A DNA stretch of 64,000 bases from Pseudomonadota bacterium (GCA_021806605.1 JAJZQY010000004.1:28251-92250), one strand, 5' to 3'; numbered from the stretch's first letter, positions 24,879 to 60,927 are shown. Numbers and translations are program-made. Notes: a model not told the origin generated them from the sequence alone.

Positions 24879-25751
24879 CTACTTCTTCCTGGAGCGGGGA
24901 TGGGCTGCGTCGTAAACCCTGGCGAGATGCTGGAAATCCAGGTGAGTGTAAACCTGGGTGGTCGAGATGCTGGCATGCCCCAGCATTTCCTGCACCGCAC
25001 GCAGATCTCCGCTCGACTGCAGCACATGGGATGCGAAGGAATGCCGCAGCATGTGGGGATGAATATGCCCCGGCATGCCCTGCTTCACGCCCCACGAACT
25101 GATGCGGTACTGGATGGCGCGCTGGCTGATGGGGCGGCCGTTTCTGTTCAGGAAAAGAGCCTCTTCCCCTTCCCTTGCCAGATTCTTTCGCACTTCCAGC
25201 CATTTTTCGATTGCGGCAATCGCCATGCGCCCCACCGGAACCACCCGGGTCTTGTTTCCCTTGCCTGTCACTCGCACCGTTCCCTCGCCGAAATCGATGT
25301 CGCGGCCGGCCAGATGCTTCAGTTCGGAAAGCCGCAGTCCCGATGAATAGAACAGTTCGAACATGGCCTTGTCGCGCAGGCTCAACACGTCTTCCGCATC
25401 GTTGGCAAGGAACCTGTTCGCCTCGTCCGGAGAAAGCGCTTCGGGAAGATTCCTGGGAGACTTCGGCGGGCGGAGGCCCGTTGCCGGATTATGGGTGTGT
25501 CCGTGGTCGCGCACCAGATAATTGAAGTAGCTGCGCCATGCAGAAAGCGTCCGGGCAAGGCTTCTTCCGCTCAAGCCCCCGGCGTGCAGCCTGGCGACGA
25601 AGTGGCGCAGATGGTGGATCCTGATGTCTTCGAGAGGAGTATCCTGCGCAAGACCGAGCAGCAGGCCCACATCCCTCAGGTAATTTTCGCAAGTCAATCG
25701 GCTCAGGCGCCGCTCGTTCGACAGGTGCGACCTGTAGCCCTCAAGATGCAT
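24879..25751 (-). CDS. xerC: Tyrosine recombinase XerC
   Basis: Catalytic-region motifs are HMLRHSFASH and LGHASISTTQVYTH. dapF-DUF484-xerC synteny supports the call. Confidence 0.9.
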   Translation of the reverse strand: MHLEGYRSHLSNERRLSRLTCENYLRDVGLLLGLAQDTPLEDIRIHHLRHFVARLHAGGLSGRSLARTLSAWRSYFNYLVRDHGHTHNPATGLRPPKSPRNLPEALSPDEANRFLANDAEDVLSLRDKAMFELFYSSGLRLSELKHLAGRDIDFGEGTVRVTGKGNKTRVVPVGRMAIAAIEKWLEVRKNLAREGEEALFLNRNGRPISQRAIQYRISSWGVKQGMPGHIHPHMLRHSFASHVLQSSGDLRAVQEMLGHASISTTQVYTHLDFQHLARVYDAAHPRSRKK

Positions 25752-25752
25752 G

Positions 25753-26397
25753 TCAGAAGCGGGAAAGCGCAGCCGCCACCCACTCGCCTATGCGCTTCAG
25801 GTGCAGCGTGCCGATGTCCGGGTCGAAGCGCCGCGGGTCCTCGGAAGCCAGCACCAGCAACCCCTTCGCCCTTTCCCCGGGGAGCGGCACCAGGGCGAAG
25901 GAGCGCAGATGCTCCCCCGCTTCCCCGAACCAGGACAGCAGCCCGGGAGCGACATGGTGCCCGCAATGGGGCTGGGTCAGGCTCTCCGCAATCTCGATCT
26001 CGCTCGCGCCGACCGGCGAAAATTCCGGAAGATCGGCACCCGAATCCATTCCCCATACCCTGAGCGCGACATGGGGGACTTCGAAATCCTCGCGCAGATT
26101 GTTTTCCAGAACATAGAGCAAAGCCTCCATGGAGCGGGCTTTCAGCAGGGCAAGCGACAGCCTGTGCATTTTCTCGCCGATGTCGTCGTTTTCCTCGCCG
26201 AACCGGATCAGTTCCCGCAGCTTGGTCTCGATCAGCCGGTTCTTCTCCCGCAAGGTAATCAGCTGCCTCTCCCCGATGGGAATCGCCCTGCCGTCGTGCG
26301 GATGGGGCACGTAGATGCTCGCCAGAAGATCGGCATAGTGTTCGGCAAACTCCGGGTTTTGCTGCAAATATTGTGCGACTTCCTCTGCTGTCATCAT
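25753..26397 (-). CDS. DUF484 (YigA-like) protein
   Basis: The N-terminus [14 protein letters not shown] is typical, and the gene sits in the usual slot between dapF and xerC. Confidence 0.85.
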
Positions 26398-31465: not shown

Positions 31466-33262
31466 ATGAACGTATTTTACGAGGAAGACGGCGCATTCAA
31501 GGCGGGTTCCGTCCTCGCCGACAACACCACCTCGTTGCAAGTCGAGTCCACCCACGGCAAGCGCAGCAAAATCAAGGCAGCTTCCGTGCTCATCCGTTTC
31601 CAGAAACCCGATCTTTCGGGATTCATGGAAGCCGCCCAGCAGGTGGCTGACGGAATCGCCCCCGACTTCCTCTGGGAATGCTGTTCGGGCGAGGAATTCT
31701 CGTTCGATGCGTTGAGCGAGGAGTATTTCGGTCACGCGCCCTCCCCTCTGGAAAGCGCGGGAGTGCTCATCAGGCTTCACCATTCCCCCATGTATTTCTA
31801 CAAGAAGGGCAAGGGGAAATACAAGGCCGCCCCGTCGGACGCGCTGAAAGCCGCTCTGGCGAGCCAGGAGAAGAAGCGCAGGCAGGCCGAATTGCAGGCG
31901 AGCCTTTCCGCGGAGCTCGAAAATCGCCGGCTTCCGGACGAATTCGTTCCGATACTGCCTAGCCTGCTGTACGACCCAGACAAAAACAGCATCGCCTACA
32001 AGGCGCTCGCTCAGGCTTGCGAGGCATCCGGACTTTCTGCCGCCCGCCTGCTCGAAGAATGCGGTGCCCTGCCTTCCAGCCACGACTATCATCTGAACCG
32101 CTTCCTTTTCGAGCATTTCCCGAAAGGCATTCCGGTTCCGGAAGCGTGCGGAATTCCCGAATTGCCGGATCTGCCCATGGGAGACGCGAAAGCTTTCAGC
32201 ATAGACGATGCGGCCACCACCGAAATCGACGACGCATTTTCGGTCTCATTCCCGGAAAACGGAAACCTGCGCATCGGCATCCATATCGCCGCGCCGGCCC
32301 TCGGCATCCCGGTGGGCTCCGGCATCGATCTTCATGCGCTCAAGATGCTTTCGACCATCTACATCCCGGGGCGGAAATTCACCATGCTCCCGGAAGAAGG
32401 GATCGACGCCTTCACCCTTTCCGAAAACGCGATCTGTCCTGTCGCCTCCCTATATGTCGAGGTGGATGAGAACTTCGAGGTGGTCGCCACGCGCAACGCA
32501 CTGGAACGGATAGCGATCGTCTCCAATCTCAGGCACGAGACCATGGCATCCGACAGGCGCTTCGAAAAAGAGATGGGGATCCTCCTCGACTTCGCCAGCA
32601 AGCTGGAATCCGCCAGGGGAAAGGCCGGCAATACGAATCAGGTCGACTACAATTTCCATGTCGAGAACGACCGCGTTACAATCAGCGAGAGAAAGCGCGG
32701 CTCCCCCCTCGACAAGGTCGTCTCGGAACTCATGATCTACGCCAACACGGAATGGGCGAGGCAGCTCTCCGACAAGGGATTGCCTGCGATCTACCGTTCG
32801 CAGAACAACGGCAAGGTGCGCCAGGACACCAGGCCGGCTCCGCACCAGGGGCTGGGCGTTTCCCAGTACGCCTGGACCACTTCCCCCCTGCGCCGCTACG
32901 TCGATCTCGTCAACCAGAGACAGCTGGTTGCGATGATCAACGGCACCGATCCCGCCTACGAAAAGGGAAGCGACCAGGTTCCGGTCATCATGCGCGACTT
33001 CGACCAGGCTTACGAAATCTACAACGGCTTCCAGCGCACCATGGAGCGCTACTGGTGCCTGAGGTGGCTGCTGCAGGAGAACGTTTCTTCGGCAAGCGGA
33101 ACCGTCCAGCGCGAAAACTGGGTCAAGCTCGACAAGCTCCCCCTCTCCTGCAAGGTGCCCTCCCTTCCCGAGATGGCGCCGGGCAGCCAGGTCATGCTGG
33201 AGATTTCGCATGTCGACCTTCTCGAACTCGGCTTCAATGCCAGATTCACGGAGAGAATCTGA
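31466..33262 (+). CDS. RNB-domain ribonuclease (RNase II/R family)
   Basis: The RNB catalytic motif SIDDAATTEIDDAFS is present, and TSPLRRYVDLVNQRQL appears later. The product is 598 aa long. Confidence 0.8.
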   Translation: MNVFYEEDGAFKAGSVLADNTTSLQVESTHGKRSKIKAASVLIRFQKPDLSGFMEAAQQVADGIAPDFLWECCSGEEFSFDALSEEYFGHAPSPLESAGVLIRLHHSPMYFYKKGKGKYKAAPSDALKAALASQEKKRRQAELQASLSAELENRRLPDEFVPILPSLLYDPDKNSIAYKALAQACEASGLSAARLLEECGALPSSHDYHLNRFLFEHFPKGIPVPEACGIPELPDLPMGDAKAFSIDDAATTEIDDAFSVSFPENGNLRIGIHIAAPALGIPVGSGIDLHALKMLSTIYIPGRKFTMLPEEGIDAFTLSENAICPVASLYVEVDENFEVVATRNALERIAIVSNLRHETMASDRRFEKEMGILLDFASKLESARGKAGNTNQVDYNFHVENDRVTISERKRGSPLDKVVSELMIYANTEWARQLSDKGLPAIYRSQNNGKVRQDTRPAPHQGLGVSQYAWTTSPLRRYVDLVNQRQLVAMINGTDPAYEKGSDQVPVIMRDFDQAYEIYNGFQRTMERYWCLRWLLQENVSSASGTVQRENWVKLDKLPLSCKVPSLPEMAPGSQVMLEISHVDLLELGFNARFTERI

Positions 33263-33265
33263 GCA

Positions 33266-34090
33266 ATGAGCGCGCGGCTGAGAGTCGGCATCTCCACGCT
33301 GATATCGGTTCTGCTGCACGCATTCCTGCTTTTCGGCATCGGATTCGAGGTTTCCCGAATGCTCAAGCATGCCGCCCCGCCGCTCGAAATCATCCTGGTC
33401 AACAGCAAGACTGCGCACAAGCCCGTCAAGGCCGATGCCCTGGCGCAGGCTAATCTTTCCGGAGGCGGGAACGTCGCCGAGAAGAGACGCGCAAAGTCTC
33501 CCCTCCCCCCCGTGGACACGCAGGAAATGCGCTCGGATGAAGTGGAAGCGAGGCAGGAGCAGCTTTCCCAGCTGGAGCGCGAGTCGAAGCATCTGCTGGC
33601 TGCGATAAAGGACAGCGAAACCGTGCAAAGCGACAAAAGAATCGCCGACACGCACGACCTCGCCCAGAAAAGCCTCGAAATCGCCCGCATCGAAGCGCAA
33701 ATCGACAACGACATGGATGCCTACCAGAAAATCCCGAAGGAAACCGATGTTTCGCCTTCCACCCGGGAATACCGCTTTGCCCGCTACGTCGAAGACTGGC
33801 GGATCAAGGTGGAGCGAATCGGCAGCCTGAATTTCCCGGAGGAAGCCAAGAGAAGGCAGATCTTCGGCAGCCTCCTGCTCAACGTCTGCATCAAGCCGGA
33901 CGGCTCGCTCGACAGGGTGGAGATCGTCCGCTCTTCCGGACACGGGATTCTCGACGATGCAGCGATCCGCATCGCCAGGCTTGCCGCCCCCTATGCTCCG
34001 CTGCCGAAAGACATCCGCAAGGACACCGACATCCTCTGCATCTACCGCACCTGGATGTTCACGAGATCAAACGAAATGGTGAGCAAATGA
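33266..34090 (+). CDS. TonB-family (TonB C-terminal domain) protein
   Basis: The product has an N-terminal TM segment (ISTLISVLLHAFLLFGIGF) and a charged coiled middle region. The C-terminal domain is TonB_C-like (GSLLLNVCIKPDGSLDRVEIVRSSGHGILDDAA). Confidence 0.65.
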   Translation: MSARLRVGISTLISVLLHAFLLFGIGFEVSRMLKHAAPPLEIILVNSKTAHKPVKADALAQANLSGGGNVAEKRRAKSPLPPVDTQEMRSDEVEARQEQLSQLERESKHLLAAIKDSETVQSDKRIADTHDLAQKSLEIARIEAQIDNDMDAYQKIPKETDVSPSTREYRFARYVEDWRIKVERIGSLNFPEEAKRRQIFGSLLLNVCIKPDGSLDRVEIVRSSGHGILDDAAIRIARLAAPYAPLPKDIRKDTDILCIYRTWMFTRSNEMVSK

Positions 34091-34911
34091 CCGACCGTTA
34101 TGCCGTCATCGGAAACCCGATCGCCCACAGCAAATCCCCCCTGATTCATGCCGAATTTGCGAAACAGACGAATCAGGACATGACCTACGAGGCGATCCTC
34201 GCGCCGCTGGAGGGCTTCAGGGAAACTGTCGAAGGATTGCGAATGGCCGGTTACAAGGGGTTGAATGTCACCGTGCCTTTCAAGTTCGAGGCGTTTTTGT
34301 ACGCGACTTCGAAGAGCGAGCGGGCCGAAACCGCAAAAGCGGTCAACACCCTGAGCTTCGCAGGGGGCGCGGTATTTGGAGACAATACCGACGGCATCGG
34401 GCTGGTTGCCGACATAGAGAAGAACCTCGATTTCCCCATTGCGGGGAAAAGCATTCTTCTGGTGGGGATGGGAGGAGCGGCATGGGGAGTTTTGTCCCCG
34501 CTTCTTCAGCAGAAGCCGAAGCGATTAACCCTGTCGAACAGGACCGTAGCCAAAGCGGAAGACGCCGCCCGAGTTCTTGCTTCGCTGGGCAAATACGATC
34601 CTACCGAAATTGCCGCGAAACCGTTCGACCGGCTGGCAGGACAACAGTTCGACATCGTGATCAACGCCACATCAAGCGGCCTCAAGGATGAAATGCCCCC
34701 CCTGCCTCCAGGTCTTTTTTCCGAAAATTCACTCGCCTACGACATGATGTACGGCAGGCAGACGCCTTTCATGGCATTCGCCGGGAAGGAAGGCGCTTCC
34801 AGAATTTCGGACGGGCTCGGGATGCTCGTCGAGCAGGCCGCAGAAGCGTTCTTCTTGTGGCGCGGCATCCGCCCGCAAACTGCGCCCGTGATCGAGAAGC
34901 AGAGGACATGA
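34087..34911 (+). CDS. aroE: Shikimate dehydrogenase
   Basis: The product shows VIGNPIAHSKSPLIH, NVTVPFK, NTDG and a Rossmann fold (GMGGAA). Confidence 0.93.
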   Translation: MTDRYAVIGNPIAHSKSPLIHAEFAKQTNQDMTYEAILAPLEGFRETVEGLRMAGYKGLNVTVPFKFEAFLYATSKSERAETAKAVNTLSFAGGAVFGDNTDGIGLVADIEKNLDFPIAGKSILLVGMGGAAWGVLSPLLQQKPKRLTLSNRTVAKAEDAARVLASLGKYDPTEIAAKPFDRLAGQQFDIVINATSSGLKDEMPPLPPGLFSENSLAYDMMYGRQTPFMAFAGKEGASRISDGLGMLVEQAAEAFFLWRGIRPQTAPVIEKQRT

Positions 34912-35594
34912 AGCGCTGGATCGAGCGCCTGCTTGCGCTCGCATTCCTCTCGATCCTGCTCTACCAGGCATGGCTCTTCGCCCATGTCTGGTACTGGGTG
35001 GACCACAACCCGGATTCCACCGCATTCATGGCGGCCCGCCTCGTCGAGATGAGAAAAACGAATCCTGACGCCCATATCGTCCACCAGTGGGTGCCCTACA
35101 ACCGCATCTCGAACAACCTGAAGCGCGCGCTGGTCGCGGCCGAAGACGCCAAGTTCCTCGACCACGAGGGATTCGACTGGGAAGGGATACAGAAGGCCTA
35201 CGAGAAGGATTTGAAGAAGGGCAGGATCGTCGCGGGAGGATCGACCATCAGTCAGCAGCTCGCCAAGAATCTCTTCCTTTCCGGAAAGCGCTCTCCCTGG
35301 CGTAAGGGGGAGGAGAGCATCATCACCGTCATGATCGAGCACACCATGAGCAAGCGGAGGATACTGGAGCTCTATCTCAACAGCATCGAGTGGGGAAACG
35401 GCATTTTCGGCGCAGAGGCCGCAGCCAAGCATTATTACGGAATCGATGCGGCGAACCTTTCAGCCTTCCAGGCTGCGCGGCTCGCCGCCATGGTGCCCAA
35501 TCCCCGCTATTACGATGCGCATCGCAACGCCGGGTGGCTCTCGAAAAAAACCGGCATCCTGCTCGGGCGCATGAATTCAGCGCAAATTCCGTAA
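34908..35594 (+). CDS. mtgA: Monofunctional biosynthetic peptidoglycan transglycosylase
   Basis: The ATG at 34908 overlaps the aroE stop (ATGA). GT51 motifs are AAEDAKFLDHEGFD and GGSTISQQLAKN. Confidence 0.93.
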   Translation: MKRWIERLLALAFLSILLYQAWLFAHVWYWVDHNPDSTAFMAARLVEMRKTNPDAHIVHQWVPYNRISNNLKRALVAAEDAKFLDHEGFDWEGIQKAYEKDLKKGRIVAGGSTISQQLAKNLFLSGKRSPWRKGEESIITVMIEHTMSKRRILELYLNSIEWGNGIFGAEAAAKHYYGIDAANLSAFQAARLAAMVPNPRYYDAHRNAGWLSKKTGILLGRMNSAQIP

Positions 35595-36146
35595 CACCTC
35601 GTTCCAGGATTCCAGCGGGTCGCGCCTGAATCCGCTTTTGGCGAACTGGTGCCAGCGCCCGACCACGAAGCACATCAGGATGTTGGCCTGAACCGCTTCA
35701 TCCCGTCCTCCCGGCAGTTCCCCCTGGCTCACCGCGAAGCGCAGCGACTGCTTCAGCGTCGCCTCAAGCCTGTCGTGAAGCTGGTTGATCCTGCCCTGCA
35801 GCCGCTCGTTCTCGTTGACGAGCGCATCCCCTATCAGGACGCGGGTCATGCCCGGGTTCTTCTTGGCGAAGCCGAGAAGCAGGGAAAGGACGGCCTCGGT
35901 CTGCTTCAGTCCGCTCTGGTCCTCTGCGGAAATCTTGTTGATGATGCCGAAAAGGGTCTGTTCGATGAATTCGATGAGTCCCTCGAACATTTGCGCCTTG
36001 CTGGCGAAATGCCGGTAGAGCGCGGCTTCTGAAACATCGAGCTTGGCCGCGAGGGATGCCGTGGTGATTTTCTCCCCCGGCTGCTGCAGCATTTGCGCCA
36101 GGGTTTGCAGGATTTGCAGCTTTCTTTCGCCTGTTTTTGCGGACAT
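35577..36146 (-). CDS. slmA: Nucleoid occlusion factor SlmA (TetR family)
   Basis: The sequence ITTASLAAKLDVSEAALYRHFASKAQMFEGLIEFIE closely parallels E. coli SlmA. LQGRINQL is also present. Confidence 0.85.
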   Translation of the reverse strand: MSAKTGERKLQILQTLAQMLQQPGEKITTASLAAKLDVSEAALYRHFASKAQMFEGLIEFIEQTLFGIINKISAEDQSGLKQTEAVLSLLLGFAKKNPGMTRVLIGDALVNENERLQGRINQLHDRLEATLKQSLRFAVSQGELPGGRDEAVQANILMCFVVGRWHQFAKSGFRRDPLESWNEVLRNLR

Positions 36147-36154
36147 CTTTTCCT

Positions 36155-36792
36155 CTAGTGGGTTAATTGTCTTCTCGAAAGCGCCCTGATCGACGGGACA
36201 GCGATGTCGACATAGGGCGGGCGCCGGGAACAGGAAGTCACCCAGACCGTCTTCATTCCCAGTTTCTTGGCCGTCTTGAGATTCTCCAGCGCATCCTCGA
36301 CCATGACGAAGCGGGCGGGATCGAGCCCCATTTTCCTGAAAATCCTGAAGAATCCGTAGGATTCCGGCTTGGGCCGGTATCGCGAATGCTCTATCGAATA
36401 TACCCCGTCGAACAGATCGAGAATCCCGAGAATTTTCAGCACATCCAGCGCATAATGCAACGGCGCGTTGGAAAAGACAATCTTTCTCCCGGGAATGGCG
36501 CGCAATGCATGCCTCAATTGCGGCTCGCGCACCACCATTTTGGAAAGCTCGGGAAACCGGTGCGTATGCTCCAGAAAATGCCCGGGCCTGGTGCCATGGT
36601 GCTGCATCATGCCGGAGAGCGTCGCGCCGTATTTTTCCCAGTAGTGCCGTCTCAGCCTGTCGGCTTCGTCATGTTCGAGATCCAGATGCGTCTTCAGGTA
36701 TTGCGTCATGCTCCTGTTGATGTGGGGAAAGATGTGCGGATTCGCATCGTGCAGCGTGTTGTCGAGATCGAATACCCAGATTTTCCCGGCCA

Positions 36793-36793
<1 letters not shown>
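36155..36793 (-). CDS. HAD-family pyrimidine 5'-nucleotidase
   Basis: The internal ATG at 36793 gives MAGKIWVFDLDNTLH, the HAD motif I DxDxT. Its start shares 1 nt with the argB stop (TGATG). Confidence 0.8.
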
Positions 36794-37740
<947 letters not shown>

Positions 37741-37775
37741 AAGACGGTCGATATGCGCACGGGAACCCTGGCAAT

Positions 37776-38102
37776 TCATCCGGCCGTCACCACGGCCCTG
37801 ATCTCGACGTGAAGCGCTTTTTTTATGGCCACGAAAATAGCCGAGAGACTTTCCATGGTGGGATTCCCGGATGCGGAGAGCATCCTGTGCAAGCTTTTGC
37901 TCGGTTTATGGACATCCGCGGCCAGCGCCTCAAATCCGACTGTCGCATTGACCAGTTCGCGGAGCACAAGTTTTGCCGTGTCCGGTTCGCCGTTGAGGAA
38001 AAGCGTGAGCGCCTCATCCAGCAGCGCCTGTGCAAAAGCAGGGTCGTTCTTCGCGCGGGCGACGACTGTTTGCTTGAAATCTCTGGTTAATGCCACGATC
38101 AT
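37776..38102 (-). CDS. Addiction-module antidote protein (HTH, HigA-like; dnstrm_HI1420 type)
   Basis: The internal ATG at 38102 overlaps the toxin stop (ATGA). The product is 108 aa and has an XRE-like HTH region ([28 protein letters not shown]). Confidence 0.8.
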
Positions 38103-38440
38103 TGCCTCCTTTTCATCTCTTTTGCCTTGCGCAATTTGTATCTTTCCCATAGCTCGACAGCCCGGTCGATATCCTTCTGCTGCCCTTTCTTTGTGCCGCC
38201 GCCAAGCAGAACTATGATCTTTAAGCCGTCCCTGGCAAGATAAATTCTGTAGCCCGGCCCCCAATCGATTTTATATTCTCCAATCCCACGAAACCAATTG
38301 ACGTTGGACAGATTGCCCTGACTCATTCTTAGCTTCGCTGTTGCGATCTTCGCTGCAGCGACAGGGTCCAGCGACAGGAACCAGTCTTCATAAGGGCTGG
38401 TTCCGTCTTCTTCGATCAATTCGCAAACCTGAAAGGTCAT
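38099..38440 (-). CDS. RelE/ParE-superfamily addiction-module killer protein (upstrm_HI1419 type)
   Basis: The ATG at 38440 gives a 113-aa product with the typical pattern [41 protein letters not shown] and [14 protein letters not shown]. The toxin precedes the antitoxin, as in higBA. Confidence 0.8.
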
Positions 38441-38447
38441 ATTTATA

Positions 38448-38488
38448 GTAACCTTAACGTTACCATTAGGCAAGGACCACGCCTTAAC
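38448..38488 (-). promoter_or_regulatory. Possible TA operator: inverted repeat GTAAC-N6-GTTAC plus two CCTTAAC direct repeats
   Basis: The element lies 8-48 nt upstream of the toxin ATG. GTAAC is at 38448-38452 and GTTAC at 38459-38463. CCTTAAC occurs at 38452-38458 and 38482-38488, 30 bp apart. Confidence 0.25.
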
Positions 38489-38650
38489 TACCTGGCGCGT
38501 CTTTATTGAATTCCCTTTCAATTTAGAGCATTATTGGAAAAATTCCCGAACCGACGCCGGAATAGCGGTTTCTCCCGTCAATGGGGGTGTCTGCTTCAGT
38601 TGGGCGCGGCAATCAACGAAATGACCGATAATCGAATTTTCCGGTAGGAG

Positions 38651-38866
38651 ATGAAGACAATGGAACTGACCGCAGTACTTACCCCCGCCGAGGAAGGCGG
38701 CTACATCGCATTGAACCCTGAGACCGGAACGACTACGCAGGGTGAAACCGTTGAAGAAGCGATTGCCAACCTTCAGGAGGCCACGGCGCTCTACCTGTCC
38801 GAGTTCCCAATTCACGTGTCTGGTCACCCCCTGGTAACGACCTTCAGCGTTCCAGCGCATGCCTAA
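38651..38866 (+). CDS. hicB: Minimal HicB-family antitoxin (71 aa, UPF0150 fold only)
   Basis: The sequence AVLTPAEEGGYIALNPETGTTTQGETVEEAIANLQEA is a typical HicB N-domain. The SD (TAGGAG) is correctly spaced. No RHH or HTH tail is present. Confidence 0.8.
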   Translation: MKTMELTAVLTPAEEGGYIALNPETGTTTQGETVEEAIANLQEATALYLSEFPIHVSGHPLVTTFSVPAHA

Positions 38867-39074
38867 ACTGCCGCACGTCTCGGGGCCTGCCATAGTTCGG
38901 GCACTGGAGCGCCTCGGTTTCGAAAAGATCCGCCAGTCCGGAAGCCACGTCATCATGCGTCGCGGTTCCAAAGGTTGTGTCGTGCCGATGCATGGCGAAG
39001 TCAAGACAGGCACCCTGGCAGGCGTTCTTCGACAGGCCGCTGTATCGGCGGAAGAATTTATCTCGGCTTTGTAA
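38859..39074 (+). CDS. hicA: HicA-family mRNA interferase toxin
   Basis: The fold is YcfA/HicA-like, with VSGPAIVRALERLGFEKIRQSGSHVIM containing the catalytic GSH. It overlaps hicB by 8 nt. Confidence 0.85.
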   Translation: MPKLPHVSGPAIVRALERLGFEKIRQSGSHVIMRRGSKGCVVPMHGEVKTGTLAGVLRQAAVSAEEFISAL

Positions 39075-39177
39075 CCATGGCATCCAACCCATGCTTTGAA
39101 GGATCGTCCGGGGCGCCGCGCCCCCTGCGCTTCCGGGCTGTCCTTCAAGCTTTCCGTTAGGCATCAAAGGATGAACG

Positions 39178-39816
39178 ATGACACAAAAATATGAAGAACC
39201 GGGATTGAATAAGGATGCGTTTACGTGTCCATCATGTGGTGCGTTTGCGGCAATGCAATGGGAGCCTCTACGTACCAATAGCGCATGGCAAGCTATTTCA
39301 CTTGCTTATTGTCACAGGTGTAAGCGCCACTCCGTTTGGTTGGATGGTTCGAATGGCTATCCAGTCAAAATGCTCTTCCCTAAATCATTAACTGCACCAC
39401 TGCCAAATGAAGACCTGCCAGAAGAGTGCCTGAACGACTACATGGAGGCGAGAGAAATCGCTAATAATTCGCCTCGTGGGGCGGCAGCATTATTGCGGTT
39501 GTGTATCCAAAAGCTGGCAATACATTTAGGTGGGGATGGAAAAAATATCAATGATGACATCGGTAAGCTCGTAAAAAATGGGATGCCTCAACGGGTTCAG
39601 CAAGCCCTAGATGTTGTACGTGTGGTTGGCAATAATGCAGTTCATCCTGGAGAAATGTCTGTTGACGATCAGCCTGAAACGGTTCACGCCTTATTCGGTT
39701 TAATCAACCTGATTACTGATAACCAAATAACCCAACCCAAACAAGTTGGTAATTTATTCGCCAGCTTACCGGAAGGGGCGAGAAACGCTGTTGAAAAACG
39801 AGATAAATACTCATAA
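39178..39816 (+). CDS. 4-Cys zinc-ribbon + DUF4145-type (HEPN-like) protein, function unknown
   Basis: The N-terminus has CPSCG..(24)..CHRC. The C-terminal half matches my memory of DUF4145 (YMEAREIANNSPRGAAALLRLCIQKL and ALDVVRVVGNNAVHPGE, which is R-x2-GN-x3-H). GC is markedly lower than in the flanks, 46 of the first 100 nt by hand count. Confidence 0.8.
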   Translation: MTQKYEEPGLNKDAFTCPSCGAFAAMQWEPLRTNSAWQAISLAYCHRCKRHSVWLDGSNGYPVKMLFPKSLTAPLPNEDLPEECLNDYMEAREIANNSPRGAAALLRLCIQKLAIHLGGDGKNINDDIGKLVKNGMPQRVQQALDVVRVVGNNAVHPGEMSVDDQPETVHALFGLINLITDNQITQPKQVGNLFASLPEGARNAVEKRDKYS

Positions 39817-39902
39817 CAAAATGCTCAAGATCGTTCGCTTTCACCCACTGAAATTCCGGAGACCTTAAAAAACCATGTTCACTTGATTGCGATTCCGCAG
39901 AC

Positions 39903-39926
39903 AAAAAAAGGATAACCTATCCTCTC
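39903..39926 (-). terminator. Rho-independent terminator-like hairpin (minus strand)
   Basis: The minus strand reads AGGATA-ggt-TATCCT followed by TTTTTTTGT. It lies about 195 nt downstream of the ibpA stop. Confidence 0.5.
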
Positions 39927-40018
39927 ATTGCTAGATTTGCGCGGAAAGCCACGCGAATTCGAACGTCAATCTTCCCAGTAATGGAAGCGCAGTTGAGCGG
40001 TCATCAATGCACCCTCCT

Positions 40019-40029
40019 CGATGCGCCAT
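40019..40029. repeat. Right copy of the exact 11-bp direct repeat CGATGCGCCAT
   Basis: It is identical to 37702-37712. Confidence 0.9.
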
Positions 40030-40118
40030 GCGATGCTCATGTGATGCGGCGCGACCGGAATCCGGAAAGGGCGCGCTTCAGGCCTGCGCGAAGAACCGCC
40101 CAGGCCGCGATTGCCACG

Positions 40119-40559
40119 TCAGTCGATGGTCAGGCGCCTCGCTTCGACAGTCGCCTTCTTGGGAAGCACTAGTTCCAGCACGCCGTCCGAATATTTCGCA
40201 TGGGAATTCGACTCGTCGACTTCCTGGTCCAGCGTGAAGGCCCGGGAAGCCTTGCCGAAATAGCGCTCGGAGCGCAGCACGATTTCTCCCTTCTTCTCTT
40301 CCTTCTCCTGCCTGACTTCGGCGGAGAGGGAAACCCGGTTGCCGTCTATCGTCACATGGATGTCTTCCTTCTTCACCCCCGGAATGTCCGCCTTGACGGT
40401 GTAGCTCTTGTCGTCCTCCTTGACGTCCACCTTGATCTGGGGAGCCTGCCTCTCCATATCCGTGCCGAAAGGCTTGACCATGAAGCCCTTGAAGAAGTTG
40501 TCGAACGGATCGTCGAACGGTTCCAGTCTGAAAGGATCCCAGCGGGAAATGTTGGCCAT
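40119..40559 (-). CDS. ibpA: Hsp20/alpha-crystallin small heat-shock protein
   Basis: The product has an alpha-crystallin domain (VDVKEDDKSYTVKADIPGVKKEDIHVTIDGNRVSLSAE and GVLELVLPKK). A strong SD (AGGAGGA) is present. Confidence 0.92.
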   Translation of the reverse strand: MANISRWDPFRLEPFDDPFDNFFKGFMVKPFGTDMERQAPQIKVDVKEDDKSYTVKADIPGVKKEDIHVTIDGNRVSLSAEVRQEKEEKKGEIVLRSERYFGKASRAFTLDQEVDESNSHAKYSDGVLELVLPKKATVEARRLTID

Positions 40560-59670: not shown

Positions 59671-60927
59671 ATGAAAATTCTCGTCATCGGAAACGGCGGG
59701 CGCGAACATGCCCTGGCATGGAAGCTCGCCCGTTCGGCAAGAGTCAGCCGGGTCTATGTCGCGCCCGGGAATGCGGGAACCGCGCTGGACGAAGGCTGCG
59801 TCAACGTGAATCTGACGGAAATCCCCGACCTGATCGATTTCGCGAAACAGGAATCGATCGCGCTCACCGTGGTCGGGCCTGAAGCGCCTCTGGCGAAAGG
59901 CATCGTCGACGACTTCAGGGCGGAAGGCCTCAAGATTTTCGGCCCGACGAAAGCGGCCGCCCAGCTCGAAAGCTCCAAGGCTTACGCCAAGGCGTTCATG
60001 ATGCGGCACGGCATTCCCACCGCAAGTTATGCGGAATTCGAAGACATTGCTGCAGCGCACCGCTACGTGGACGAGAAAGGCGCTCCCATCGTGATCAAGG
60101 CAGACGGCCTCGCGGCCGGAAAGGGCGTGGTAGTGGCCATGGATCTGCCTGATGCGCATGCCGCGATCGACACGATTCTTTCCGGAGGCGGACGGGTGGT
60201 GATCGAGGAATTCCTGGAAGGGGAGGAAGCGAGCTTCATCGTCATGGCCGACGGAAAAAATGTCCTGCCCTTCGTCACCAGCCAGGACCACAAGCGGCTC
60301 CTCGACGGCGACAGGGGTCCCAACACCGGCGGCATGGGCGCTTATTCTCCCGCAGCCGTGGTCACGCCTTCGCTGCACGCGAGGGTGATGCGGGAGATCA
60401 TTCAGCCTGTCATGCGGGGCATGAGTCAGGACGGCATCAGCTACACCGGCTTTCTTTACGCGGGACTCATGATCGACAGGGAAGGCAACCCGAAAACGCT
60501 CGAATTCAACTGCAGGATGGGCGACCCGGAAACCCAGCCGATCATGATGCGCCTCAAGACCGATCTCAGCCTCCTCGTCGAGCACGGGATCAACGGCACG
60601 CTCGACAAGATCGAAGCCGAATGGGACAGGCGCGCCGCGCTCGGCGTGGTGATGGCGGCCCACGACTATCCCGACAATCCGAGGAAGGGGGACGTCATTT
60701 CCGGGCTGCCGAAAAACGAGGAAGATTTCCACGTATTCCATGCCGGGACCCGGCTGGAGGACAAGCAAGTGCTCACCAATGGTGGACGGGTCCTGTGCGT
60801 CACTGCGCTCGGCGACAGTGTGAAAATGGCGCAGCGCCGTGCCTATCAGGTGGCGGAAGGGATTTCCTTCGAAGGCTGCCAGATGCGCACGGATATCGGC
60901 TACCGGGCGCTCTCTCCGAAGCAATGA
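59671..60927 (+). CDS. purD: Phosphoribosylamine--glycine ligase
   Basis: The product shows MKILVIGNGGREHALAWK and an ATP-grasp domain and is 418 aa long. Confidence 0.98.
   Translation: MKILVIGNGGREHALAWKLARSARVSRVYVAPGNAGTALDEGCVNVNLTEIPDLIDFAKQESIALTVVGPEAPLAKGIVDDFRAEGLKIFGPTKAAAQLESSKAYAKAFMMRHGIPTASYAEFEDIAAAHRYVDEKGAPIVIKADGLAAGKGVVVAMDLPDAHAAIDTILSGGGRVVIEEFLEGEEASFIVMADGKNVLPFVTSQDHKRLLDGDRGPNTGGMGAYSPAAVVTPSLHARVMREIIQPVMRGMSQDGISYTGFLYAGLMIDREGNPKTLEFNCRMGDPETQPIMMRLKTDLSLLVEHGINGTLDKIEAEWDRRAALGVVMAAHDYPDNPRKGDVISGLPKNEEDFHVFHAGTRLEDKQVLTNGGRVLCVTALGDSVKMAQRRAYQVAEGISFEGCQMRTDIGYRALSPKQ

What the first reader, a model, noticed from the sequence alone, without database searches (positions are those of the whole stretch)
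37776..39926. Low-GC toxin/defence islet (two TA pairs plus a zinc-ribbon DUF4145 gene) wedged between argB and ibpA-mpl
For more than 10 kb on each side the genes are core metabolism and translation with strong G/C at codon position 3. Between the argB start (37680) and the ibpA stop (40119) sit five small genes with visibly lower GC; I counted 46 G+C in the first 100 nt of the 39178 gene. They are a RelE/ParE-type killer with its HTH antidote (toxin first, ATGA overlap), a minimal hicB with hicA (antitoxin first, 8-nt overlap), and a DUF4145-type protein. No integrase, transposase or tRNA is adjacent, so the route of acquisition is not evident. TA modules clustered with an uncharacterised HEPN-like gene is the pattern typical of defence islands. 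This is the only clearly accessory block in the window.
Basis: partly seen in the sequence, partly recalled or inferred. Interest (0 to 1): 0.6.

Follow-up and report, generated by a model that had tools for sequence, protein, structure and literature searches.

The report
Defence/toxin islet built from integron cassettes
The low-GC block between argB and ibpA is a real, strain-variable accessory islet holding two toxin–antitoxin pairs and a homologue of the recently solved anti-phage RNase RAZR (PD-T7-4). At least its hicBA and RAZR genes arrived as integron gene cassettes, so it is an ordinary example of a known kind.

Summary
Five small genes sit at 37776-39816. Their GC3 is 0.39-0.66, against 0.72-0.87 in the flanking core genes. 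The ATGA and 8-nt overlaps and the "46 G+C in 100 nt" count are all exact.

The DUF4145 gene is no longer uncharacterised. It is a full-length homologue of PD-T7-4/RAZR (PADLOC E=2e-86; PDB 9y9c E=1e-60). The Cys4 zinc ribbon and the R/H catalytic pair are kept, and the sensor domain is divergent.

hicBA (38600-39156) and RAZR (39157-~39849) are integron gene cassettes. A homologous hicBA cassette elsewhere starts its homology exactly at the GTTGGGC core. An attC-like site (39082-39162) separates hicA from RAZR. The closest named RAZR relatives are cassettes next to IntI.

No integrase lies in the window, so this is a CALIN/SALIN-type remnant. Related strains carry other cargo at the same ibpA-argB site: a three-cassette array with significant attC sites, phd-yoeB, RelE/HTH only, or hicB only. 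The window also keeps a frameshifted yoeB relic.

This is a new member of a known kind, of modest interest.

The parts
37681..37721 (-). Conserved 41-nt argB leader shared by all locus variants. The homology break with the sister alleles lies at 37721/37722.
   Evidence: blastn breakpoints against L081, L099 and L116. The -10 element TAAAAT of a promoter-like site at 37740-37711(-) lies inside this segment, and the -35 lies in the variable DNA.
37722..38505 (-). RelE/HTH toxin-antitoxin module, 784 nt. It is present in the window, L097 and L105-107, and is replaced by about 81 nt in L099 and L116.
   Evidence: No attC-type cores were seen at its borders when the sequence was read by eye.
37776..38102 (-). 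Antitoxin candidate, 108 aa, of COG3636-type ('HTH domain-containing transcriptional regulator').
   Evidence: The ATGA overlap with the toxin is seen in the sequence. No Pfam or NCBIfam hit was obtained. More than 7700 homologues of about 106 aa exist, named HTH regulator or DNA-binding phage protein. The AF2 model has pLDDT 84 and six helices. The Foldseek hit list contains many Xre-type HTH proteins, but every hit has E>=0.9.
38099..38440 (-). RelE/ParE-family toxin, 113 aa.
   Evidence: TIGR02683 E=1.8e-23, 82.7 bits against a cut-off of 62.85. A protein in the same 90% cluster is named 'type II TA system RelE/ParE family toxin' by NCBI.
38506..38563 (.). Junction element shared by the window, L097, L099 and L116. 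It contains a terminator-like hairpin on the - strand (38562-38544). Three different sequences follow it after ...CCGGAAT.
   Evidence: plus the sequences read.
38564..38605 (+). Short remnant ending in the recombination core GTTGGGC (38599-38605), which precedes the hicBA cassette. GGGTGTCTGCTTCAGTTGGGC resembles the attI end of the Sulfuricella integron L102 (GGGTGTCTACTTAACGTTAGGC).
   Evidence: Homology with the independent hicBA cassettes L119, L120 and L121 begins exactly at 38599. The attI resemblance was seen by eye and has not been tested statistically.
38600..39156 (+). hicBA integron gene cassette, 557 nt, from TTGGGC to the G of the R' core.
   Evidence: 80% nucleotide identity to L119/L120/L121 over 38599-39090, and 87% to L117/L118 over 38631-38922. 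The L120 copy has its own attC scoring 27.3 bits, E=1e-4.
38660..38866 (+). hicB, minimal antitoxin of 68 aa (71 aa from the ATG at 38651). It has the HicB N-terminal domain only and no DNA-binding domain.
   Evidence: DUF7387 27.3 bits (cut-off 27.9) and HicB_lk_antitox E=0.02. PDB hits: 2yzt E=0.0015, and the E. coli HicB N-terminus 6hpb_B E=0.009.
38859..39074 (+). hicA toxin, 71 aa. The GSH motif with the conserved His is present.
   Evidence: PF07927 E=2.2e-16. PDB 1whz E=3.4e-5.
39082..39162 (+). attC-like site of the hicBA cassette: R'' ATCCAAC, an imperfect palindrome, then R' GTTAGGC.
   Evidence: It is the only exact RYYYAAC...GTTRRRY pair (50-150 nt apart) in the 64-kb window on either strand. 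It is the top hit of both attC covariance models in the window, but at only 12.2 bits, E about 1. Its 3' half is 78.6% identical to the L118 copy. It forms a hairpin.
39157..39849 (+). RAZR cassette with a truncated attC. It comprises TTAGGC, a 15-nt leader with an AAGGA Shine-Dalgarno sequence, the ORF, and then only the R''-L'' half of its attC (TCATAAC at 39811-39817 overlaps the stop codon).
   Evidence: 79.6% nucleotide identity to L100 over 39178-39849, running 33 nt past the stop codon into L100's attC. R' + 15 nt + ATG is the same layout as in L100, and L102 has 18 nt. GCATAAC overlaps the stop codon in L102 and L103.
39178..39816 (+). RAZR (PD-T7-4) homologue, 212 aa: a Cys4 zinc-ribbon sensor domain, a linker, and a DUF4145/HEPN RNase domain.
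   Evidence: PADLOC PD-T7-4 E=2e-86 over 2-208/211. PF13643 E=5e-14. PDB 9y9c_OA E=1.2e-60. C17/C20/C45/C48, R148, N152 and H156 are invariant in 117/117 homologues. Identity to RAZR-Ec is 29% in the ZFD and 56% in linker+HEPN.
39850..39959 (.). Spacer sharing short motifs with the sister allele L081 ('AATTCCGGAGAC...GCCACGCGA...CGAACGTCA'), suggesting a common right flank of the cassette array.
   Evidence: Sequences compared by eye; no alignment-tool match supports this stretch. BLAST homology to L081 resumes at 39960.
39960..40082 (-). Relic of yoeB (codons ~48-84), frameshifted and carrying a stop. phd and the 5' part of yoeB are deleted (455 nt relative to L081).
   Evidence: 86% identity to L081 6934-7063. 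The translation shows LKRALSGFRSRRIT* and IAWRIEEGALMTAQLRFHY in different frames.

Best explanation
The ibpA-argB intergenic site of this uncultured betaproteobacterium is a strain-variable hot spot. In this strain it holds a mosaic of four small pieces.

(1) A RelE/ParE-family toxin with a small, probably HTH, antitoxin. This is a type II TA pair, transcribed toward argB.

(2) A hicB-hicA integron gene cassette with its own attC. HicA is an mRNA-cleaving toxin. The 68-aa HicB is only the toxin-binding domain.

(3) A RAZR (PD-T7-4) cassette whose attC is truncated.

(4) A dead fragment of a former yoeB toxin gene.

By homology, RAZR is the actual anti-phage effector. Its Cys4 zinc-ribbon domain binds large ring-shaped phage proteins (portal, or Gp77-type). 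RAZR then assembles around the ring, and its DUF4145/HEPN domain (R148/H156 here) cleaves single-stranded RNA non-specifically. This stops translation and aborts the infection.

The cassettes were delivered either by integron-integrase recombination at GTT cores or as a piece of a cassette array by homologous recombination of the flanks. No integrase remains nearby, so this is a CALIN/SALIN-type remnant. The TA pairs most likely act as addictive stabilisers. Because hicBA sits just upstream on the same strand, it is also the likely source of transcription for the promoter-less RAZR cassette.

Shown here: gene content, composition, allelic variation, cassette boundaries and family membership by sequence. 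Inferred: all activities, expression, and the role of IntI.
For: Accessory status. GC3 falls from 0.72-0.87 in the flanks to 0.39-0.66 in the islet. At least five alternative contents occupy the same site on related contigs:
- window type: L090-95 and L111-115;
- phd-yoeB plus three other ORFs: L081-84;
- phd-yoeB plus RelE/HTH: L097 and L105-107;
- neither RelE/HTH nor a recognisable hicBA/RAZR: L099;
- hicB only: L116.
Several alleles are found in the same sample (3300031749, ERZ27237554, ERZ27233572, ERZ27236955). An hsp20 gene lies 65-201 nt upstream of argB in 13 of 80 distant genomes.

RAZR identity. PADLOC PD-T7-4 E=2e-86, full length. PDB 9y9c E=1.2e-60. Cys4, R, N and H are invariant in 117/117 homologues. 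Mechanism and catalytic residues are taken from PMC13017515.

Cassette nature. Homology with the independent hicBA cassettes L119-121 starts exactly at GTTGGGC (38599) and stops at the R'' of the attC-like site, and their own attC scores E=1e-4. The 3' half of the window's attC-like site is conserved in L118. The site is the only exact R''/R' pair in the window. RAZR begins 15 nt after R', as in L100. RAZR homologues at 67-69% identity sit in cassette arrays next to IntI-type integrases in a Sulfuricella MAG and in V. parahaemolyticus. In the sister allele L081, each of the three cargo ORFs is followed by an attC of the same polarity (53.6 bits E=1e-11; 20.5 bits E=0.006; 19.4 bits E=0.011). 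TA systems and PD-T7-4 are reported among the commonest defence cassettes of integrons (10.1101/2024.07.02.601686).
Against: The window's attC-like site scores only 12.2 bits (E about 1) with both covariance models. That is the same range as a noise hit at 60664. Its DNA-fold z-score is unremarkable. R'' and R' are only 4/7 complementary.

The RAZR attC is incomplete. The RelE/HTH module shows no attC cores at its borders, so not all of the islet is explained by integron recombination.

No intI is found in 64 kb, and the rest of the genome could not be examined.

The antitoxin's HTH fold is not statistically supported.

Variants D (L099) and F (L116) each rest on a single short metagenomic contig, which could be chimeric.

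No function was tested.
Confidence: 0.8

Rival explanations
1. This is a plain TA/defence islet assembled by illegitimate and homologous recombination at a hot spot, with no integron involvement. On this view the 81-nt palindrome after hicA is simply a terminator or REP-like hairpin.
For: The covariance-model E-value for the site is about 1. No intI is present in the window. RelE/HTH and phd-yoeB have no attC. Breakpoints such as 38563/38564 and 37721/37722 are not at GTT cores.
Against: The hicBA homology with L119-121 begins exactly at the GTTGGGC core, and those copies carry a significant attC. The sister allele has three significant attC sites at the same locus and with the same polarity. 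RAZR relatives are bona fide cassettes.
Confidence: 0.15
2. The five genes form one co-adapted defence system: the TA pairs regulate or trigger RAZR, and all were acquired together as a unit.
For: The genes are tightly packed. hicBA and RAZR lie on the same strand, 103 nt apart. They are jointly absent from the L097/L105 alleles.
Against: The modules occur independently. RelE/HTH occurs without hicBA/RAZR (L097, L105-107), and hicB occurs without RelE/HTH, hicA or RAZR (L116). hicBA is followed by other cassettes in L120. RAZR has other neighbours in L100, L102 and L103. GC content differs between modules (0.45 against 0.57-0.58). RAZR-Ec works as a single gene (PMC13017515).
Confidence: 0.07
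3. The block is ancestral to the lineage and its low GC merely reflects small, weakly expressed genes. On this view the other alleles are deletions.
For: Some variants do look like deletion derivatives: L116 has hicB only, and the window itself has lost phd and the 5' part of yoeB.
Against: Allele L081 has entirely different cassettes rather than a subset. The nearest RAZR relatives are in Vibrio and in metagenomic integron arrays. GC3 of 0.39 in a genome with GC3 of about 0.8 is far outside the host range. hsp20 and argB are adjacent in many genera.
Confidence: 0.05

Closest known systems
RAZR (ring-activated zinc-finger RNase; formerly PD-T7-4) of E. coli UMB1727, PDB 9y9c (Zhang et al., Nature 2026, PMC13017515; discovered in Vassallo et al. 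2022, PMC9519451)
   Same: It is a single gene of about 210 aa. It has an N-terminal Cys4 zinc ribbon, a conserved linker, and a C-terminal DUF4145/HEPN domain with an R-x7-H catalytic pair (R148/H156 here, R146/H154 in Ec). It aligns end to end (E=1e-60), with 56% identity in linker+HEPN.
   Different: The sensor zinc-finger domain is only 29% identical. The paper shows this domain sets phage specificity, so the triggers are probably different. The Ec inter-dimer contacts are not all kept: D180 and R184 are N182 and Q186 here, and V21 is A22. N, Q and A are the majority residues among the 117 closest homologues. The host is a betaproteobacterium and the context is an integron cassette. Activity is untested.
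Integron gene cassettes and integrase-less attC clusters (CALIN/SALIN). Anti-phage cassettes in sedentary chromosomal integrons are described by Darracq et al., bioRxiv 10.1101/2024.07.02.601686.
   Same: The units are small and promoter-less or TA-type. They are bounded by GTTRRRY cores, with an attC hairpin after the ORF. TA plus PD-T7-4 matches the content reported as most common in integron cassettes. The cassette content differs between strains.
   Different: Only one near-complete attC-like site and one half-site remain, and no intI or clear attI is present. The array sits between two core genes (ibpA and argB) and is interleaved with non-cassette TA modules (RelE/HTH, phd-yoeB).
HicAB type II toxin-antitoxin systems (E. 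coli HicAB 6hpb; T. thermophilus 1whz and 2yzt)
   Same: The HicA domain is present (PF07927, with the conserved GSH His). The HicB N-terminal fold is present. The genes overlap and are likely co-translated.
   Different: The antitoxin comes first. HicB is only 68 aa and lacks the C-terminal RHH/HTH DNA-binding domain, as in the small Thermus protein. Autoregulation, if any, must therefore work differently.
RelE/ParE-superfamily toxin TIGR02683 (HI1419-type, COG3657) with its downstream COG3636 DNA-binding partner (HigBA-like gene order)
   Same: The toxin comes first with a 4-nt overlap. The toxin scores above the curated cut-off. The partner belongs to the large ~106-aa family annotated as HTH regulator or 'DNA-binding phage protein'.
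   Different: The partner matches neither TIGR02684 nor any Pfam HTH model. Its target (mRNA on the ribosome, or gyrase) cannot be told from sequence.
Core-genome defence hot spots lacking mobility genes (general knowledge, not checked here, of hot spots described in E. coli and Pseudomonas aeruginosa pangenomes)
   Same: The flanks are conserved core genes, the small defence or TA cargo varies between strains, and no integrase or tRNA is present.
   Different: Here part of the cargo has recognisable integron-cassette borders, which offers a concrete exchange mechanism.

Membership tests
RAZR / PD-T7-4 | Full-length match to the PD-T7-4 family model | tested here: met
   PADLOC PDLC04109 E=2e-86, residues 3-210 against model positions 2-208 of 211.
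RAZR / PD-T7-4 | N-terminal Cys4 zinc-ribbon domain | tested here: met
   C17, C20, C45 and C48 align with Ec C16, C19, C49 and C52. All four are invariant in 117/117 homologues.
RAZR / PD-T7-4 | C-terminal DUF4145/HEPN domain with catalytic Arg and His (R146/H154 in Ec) | tested here: met
   PF13643 E=5e-14. R148 and H156 align and have the same spacing. Both are invariant in 117/117 homologues. Their catalytic role is taken from PMC13017515.
RAZR / PD-T7-4 | Inter-dimer contacts needed for higher-order oligomers in Ec (V21, D179, D180, R184) | tested here: not met
   D181 is kept, but the other three positions are N182, Q186 and A22 here. N, Q and A are the majority residues in the subfamily. 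These residues are therefore Ec-specific rather than family-defining. Oligomerisation itself is untested.
RAZR / PD-T7-4 | Phage-ring-triggered assembly, ssRNA cleavage, abortive infection | not testable with these tools
   Known only for the E. coli and K. variicola proteins (PMC13017515).
Integron gene cassette | Cassette starts at the TT of a GTTRRRY core | tested here: met
   GTTGGGC lies at 38599-38605, and homology with the independent cassettes L119-121 begins exactly there. The RAZR cassette starts at GTTAGGC, 39156-39162.
Integron gene cassette | attC site (R''-L''...L'-R' imperfect palindrome) downstream of the ORF | tested here: inconclusive
   For hicBA: 39082-39162 has exact cores, forms a hairpin and is the top covariance-model hit, but at only 12.2 bits, E about 1. 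Genuine but divergent attC sites scored 12.8-17.6 with the same model. For RAZR: only the 5' half remains.
Integron gene cassette | Homologous cassette found in other genetic contexts or arrays | tested here: met
   hicBA is found in L119-121 (with an attC at E=1e-4) and in L117/118. RAZR relatives lie next to IntI in L102 and L103 and in the L100 array.
Complete integron | intI integrase gene and attI adjacent to the array | tested here: not met
   tblastn with two IntI proteins finds only XerC (290 aa, next to DUF484) 12 kb away. The element is therefore a CALIN/SALIN-type remnant at most.
HicAB type II TA | HicA domain toxin | tested here: met
   PF07927 60.1 bits against a cut-off of 27. 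PDB 1whz E=3.4e-5.
HicAB type II TA | HicB antitoxin fold adjacent to hicA | tested here: inconclusive
   HicB_lk_antitox E=0.02. DUF7387 27.3 bits against a cut-off of 27.9. PDB 2yzt E=0.0015 and E. coli HicB 6hpb_B E=0.009 over the N-terminal domain. There is an 8-nt overlap with hicA.
RelE/ParE type II TA | RelE/ParE-superfamily toxin | tested here: met
   TIGR02683 82.7 bits against a cut-off of 62.85.
RelE/ParE type II TA | Cognate DNA-binding (HTH) antitoxin | tested here: inconclusive
   No Pfam, NCBIfam or PDB sequence match. NCBI names a protein in the same 90% cluster an HTH regulator. The AF2 model is helical and its best Foldseek hits are Xre-type HTH proteins, but all have E>=0.9.
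Type II TA (both pairs) | Toxicity neutralised by the partner | not testable with these tools
   This needs expression assays.

The most novel reading that the evidence does not exclude
An integrase-less mini cassette array, fixed between two core genes (ibpA and argB), serves as a population-level exchange point for defence and TA cassettes. It would be fed by an integron integrase acting in trans. Co-existing strains in one community would then carry alternative cassettes: hicBA+RAZR here, and three cassettes in the sister allele encoding a 100-aa BrnA-like protein and proteins of 167 aa and 210/256 aa with no known family. The two unknown sister-allele cassettes would then be candidates for new anti-phage genes. 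The divergent RAZR zinc finger would sense ring proteins of phages of this uncultured host.
Probability: 0.25. Interest if true: 0.5.

Novelty: new member of a known kind. Interest (0 to 1): 0.3.

Why it matters
The finding places a homologue of a freshly characterised immune RNase (RAZR) in an uncultured betaproteobacterium. Its sensor domain is strongly diverged, which is useful for anyone mapping how the zinc finger sets phage specificity.

It also gives a clean natural example of integron cassettes (TA plus defence) stranded in a core-genome hot spot, with several alleles co-existing in the same samples.

It does not challenge current views. TA and PD-T7-4 cassettes are already reported as the commonest defence content of integrons.

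Tried and rejected
1. Flanking direct or inverted repeats, or a tRNA, as att sites: none found.

2. Covariance models for attC, built from 8 and then 12 betaproteobacterial sites. They find the sister-allele attCs convincingly. They cannot separate the window's site (12.2 bits) from noise. DNA-fold z-scores do not discriminate either, since a genuine L102 attC has z=+0.13.

3. A second attC upstream of hicB (38476-38606), and a complete attC after RAZR: not detected by regex, covariance model or folding.

4. RelE/HTH as a cassette: no GTT cores were seen at its borders by eye.

5. Suspected hicA pseudogenes in L091 and L114: the ORF is intact and was simply not listed in the gene tables.

6. 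The second GC dip at 31.0-31.6 kb is a core erpA-like gene.

7. The IntI-like tblastn hit at 24.9-25.8 kb is XerC.

8. Whether ibpA-argB is a hot spot in other genera: larger gaps there hold metabolic or flagellar-type genes, not TA or defence genes.

10. PADLOC on the sister-allele cargo gave only a negligible SduA hit at E=0.016.
Full report
**Observation.**

On the minus strand, a 113-aa gene (38099-38440) overlaps a 108-aa gene (37776-38102) by ATGA. On the plus strand, hicB (38651 or, better placed behind its Shine-Dalgarno sequence, 38660-38866) overlaps hicA (38859-39074) by 8 nt. A 212-aa gene follows at 39178-39816. argB starts at 37680 and ibpA ends at 40119.

GC3 is 0.72-0.87 in slmA, the HAD phosphatase gene, argB, ibpA, mpl and argC. 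In the five islet genes it is 0.66, 0.58, 0.64, 0.61 and 0.39. The first 100 nt of the 39178 gene contain exactly 46 G+C.

The islet is the only marked GC trough in the window. The marginal dip at 31.0-31.6 kb is a core erpA-like gene. There is no tRNA in the window and there are no flanking repeats. The only tyrosine recombinase is XerC, next to a DUF484 gene 12 kb away.

**What the genes are.**
- The toxin matches TIGR02683 (RelE/ParE family) at 82.7 bits, above the curated cut-off of 62.85.
- Its partner has no Pfam, NCBIfam or PDB sequence match. It belongs to a family of more than 7700 proteins of about 106 aa. NCBI names these 'helix-turn-helix domain-containing transcriptional regulator' and JGI names them 'DNA-binding phage protein'.
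- An AlphaFold model of the partner (pLDDT 84) is all-helical. Its best Foldseek matches are Xre-type HTH proteins, including HipB, C.Esp1396I, S. pneumoniae HigA and the HTH half of HicB3. None is significant. The HTH assignment is therefore plausible but not demonstrated.
- HicA is clear (PF07927 E=2e-16; PDB 1whz E=3e-5).
- The 68-aa HicB matches only the N-terminal HicB domain (2yzt E=0.0015; E. coli HicB 6hpb_B E=0.009; DUF7387 0.6 bit under threshold).

**The DUF4145 gene is a RAZR homologue.**
It matches the PADLOC model for PD-T7-4 over its whole length (E=2e-86). It also matches the chain named 'DUF4145 domain-containing protein' of PDB 9y9c at E=1.2e-60.

PD-T7-4 was renamed RAZR in Zhang et al., Nature 2026 (PMC13017515). 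According to that paper:
- an N-terminal Cys4 zinc-finger domain binds large ring-forming phage proteins (portal proteins of T7, T3 and SECphi18, and Gp77 of SECphi27);
- 24 RAZR protomers assemble around the ring;
- the DUF4145 domain, a divergent HEPN RNase with R146 and H154, then cleaves ssRNA non-specifically, blocks translation and aborts infection;
- the zinc finger is the most variable part and sets specificity.

The window protein keeps the four cysteines and R148, N152 and H156. All are invariant in the 117 closest homologues. It is 56% identical to RAZR-Ec in linker+HEPN but only 29% identical in the zinc finger.

The Ec inter-dimer residues D180, R184 and V21 are N, Q and A here. 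These are the majority residues in this subfamily, so those contacts are not family-defining. More than 5900 homologues exist at E<=1e-10.

**The locus is polymorphic.**
Looking up the exact IbpA, ArgB, RAZR, HicB and antitoxin-family proteins in public assemblies gave many contigs from related populations. I compared these with the window by blastn. L090 (GCA_027327765.1) is 100% identical to the window over 33178-40311.

| Allele | Contigs | Flank identity to window | Content from ibpA to argB |
|---|---|---|---|
| A | window, L090-95, L111-115 | 98-100% | yoeB relic, RAZR, hicAB, RelE/HTH |
| B | L081-84, L086, L087 | 94-96% | phd-yoeB, then ORFs of 100 aa (weak BrnA-like), 167 aa (signal peptide) and 210/256 aa (no family) |
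| C | L097; L105-107 | 97%; 88-93% | phd-yoeB, small GDCCVxC-type ORF, RelE/HTH |
| D | L099 (single contig) | 99.6% | no RelE/HTH (short contig; the ibpA side is not covered) |
| F | L116 (single contig) | 88-98% | hicB only |

- L085 is 98.7% identical in the ibpA-mpl flank and still has an intact phd and the 5′ part of yoeB (the contig ends within the gene).
- Different alleles occur in the same samples (3300031749, ERZ27237554, ERZ27233572, ERZ27236955).
- The window itself retains a 123-nt yoeB fragment (39960-40082, 86% to L081). It is frameshifted and carries a stop.
- In 13 of 80 more distant beta- and gammaproteobacterial genomes, an hsp20 gene lies 65-201 nt upstream of argB on the same strand. 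The islet therefore splits a common adjacency.
- Where other genera have larger gaps, these hold metabolic or flagellar-type genes, not TA or defence genes.

**Route of acquisition.**
The closest named RAZR relatives (67-69% identity) sit in arrays of same-strand small genes next to a divergent IntI-type integrase. This is seen in a Sulfuricella MAG (L102) and in V. parahaemolyticus (L103, where RAZR is the first cassette). Each is followed by an attC whose R'' (GCATAAC) overlaps the stop codon. An 88%-identical relative (L100) lies in another attC-bearing array.

In the window, the only exact RYYYAAC...GTTRRRY pair in 64 kb on either strand is 39082-39162, in the 103-nt hicA-RAZR spacer. It forms an imperfect hairpin. 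It resembles the L102 attCs in sequence (by eye).

RAZR starts 15 nt after the R' core behind an AAGGA Shine-Dalgarno sequence. This is the same layout as in L100.

Covariance models built from 8 and 12 genuine attCs rank this site first in the window, but at 12.2 bits and E of about 1. That score is not significant on its own. Genuine but divergent attCs (Vibrio, L100) score 12.8-17.6 with the same model.

The decisive evidence is comparative.
- Independent hicBA cassettes (L119, L120, L121) are 80% identical to the window from 38599 to 39090. The homology starts exactly at the core GTTGGGC and ends at the R'' of the attC. Their own attC scores 27.3 bits, E=1e-4.
- A decayed copy (L117/L118) shares the 3' half of the window's attC.
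- In allele B, each of the three cargo ORFs is followed by an attC of the same polarity as the window's cassettes (53.6 bits E=1e-11; 20.5 bits E=0.006; 19.4 bits E=0.011).

I therefore read 38600-39156 as a hicBA cassette. I read 39157-~39849 as a RAZR cassette whose attC has lost its 3' half, because nucleotide homology with L100 runs 33 nt past the stop codon and then breaks.

There is no intI, so the element is a CALIN/SALIN-type remnant. The RelE/HTH module (37722-38505) and phd-yoeB show no attC cores and vary independently. They are separate insertions.

TA systems and PD-T7-4 are already reported as among the commonest defence cassettes in integrons (10.1101/2024.07.02.601686).

**How it most likely works.**
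Shown here: content, composition, allelic variation, cassette borders, and family membership by sequence.

Inferred from the families:
- RAZR is the anti-phage effector and acts by abortive infection through ring-triggered RNase activity.
- HicA and the RelE/ParE protein are growth-arresting toxins held in check by their partners. They stabilise the array by addiction and may contribute to phage defence.

Inferred from the anatomy:
- The promoter-less RAZR cassette is probably read through from hicBA.
- The promoter-like site for argB (37740-37711, minus strand) straddles the homology break. Its -35 element is therefore supplied by the inserted DNA.

**Verdict.**
Two updates apply: the HEPN-like gene is RAZR, and the cassettes explain much of the acquisition route. 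It is a new member of known kinds (RAZR, integron cassettes, type II TA), of modest interest.

Noticed in passing
window 39960-40082 (-): Frameshifted, 5'-truncated relic of a yoeB toxin gene. Sister alleles have an intact phd-yoeB at this spot, and 455 nt are deleted here.
   Followed up: yes
window 37711-37740 (-): A promoter-like site upstream of argB straddles the homology break at 37721. The -10 (TAAAAT) is in conserved DNA and the -35 (TTGAAC) is in islet DNA, so different alleles may give argB different promoters.
   Followed up: partly
window 38585-38605: GGGTGTCTGCTTCAGTTGGGC resembles the attI end of the Sulfuricella integron (L102 ~1283-1305: GGGTGTCTACTTAACGTTAGGC). This is a possible attI remnant. 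It was seen by eye only and its significance was not assessed.
   Followed up: partly
window 38506-38571; L097 576-633; L099 73-138; L116 from 375: A 58-66-nt 'junction element' with a terminator-like hairpin is kept in four alleles. It is followed by three unrelated sequences after ...CCGGAAT. Its role (ibpA-side terminator, operator or recombination point) is unknown.
   Followed up: partly
L081 7141-9573: The sister allele carries a three-cassette array. Each ORF has an attC after it: a 210/256-aa protein with no family, a 167-aa protein with a signal peptide and no family, and a 100-aa weak BrnA-like protein with a degenerate terminal attC. These are candidates for unknown cassette functions.
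   Followed up: partly
L097 298-531 (-): A 77-aa Cys-rich ORF with a GDCCVxC motif lies between yoeB and RelE in allele C. It was called as a 75-aa gene in L097 but not in L105.
   Followed up: no
L100 576-3584: An array of DUF5343, HEPN_Swt1, RAZR homologue (88% identical to the window's), a second DUF4145 protein and BrnA, with attC sites. Two RAZR-like genes lie in tandem.
   Followed up: no
L002 10206-11751: In a relative with 81% ArgB identity, a very strong attC (76 bits) precedes a RelE-like/HTH pair and an IS200/RAYT-like ORF, about 2.8 kb beyond argB. Cassette remnants therefore also occur near argB in another lineage.
   Followed up: partly
L119 1117-1311: A 64-aa Phage_integrase fragment lies just upstream of, and on the same strand as, the homologous hicBA cassette. 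This is possibly a decayed integrase.
   Followed up: no
window 60664-60738 (+): A weak attC-model hit (11.6 bits) lacking the AAC/GTT cores. I treated it as noise.
   Followed up: no
window 24879-26397 (-): A DUF484-xerC pair (core chromosome-dimer resolution). This is the only tyrosine recombinase in the window and it is not an integron integrase.
   Followed up: yes
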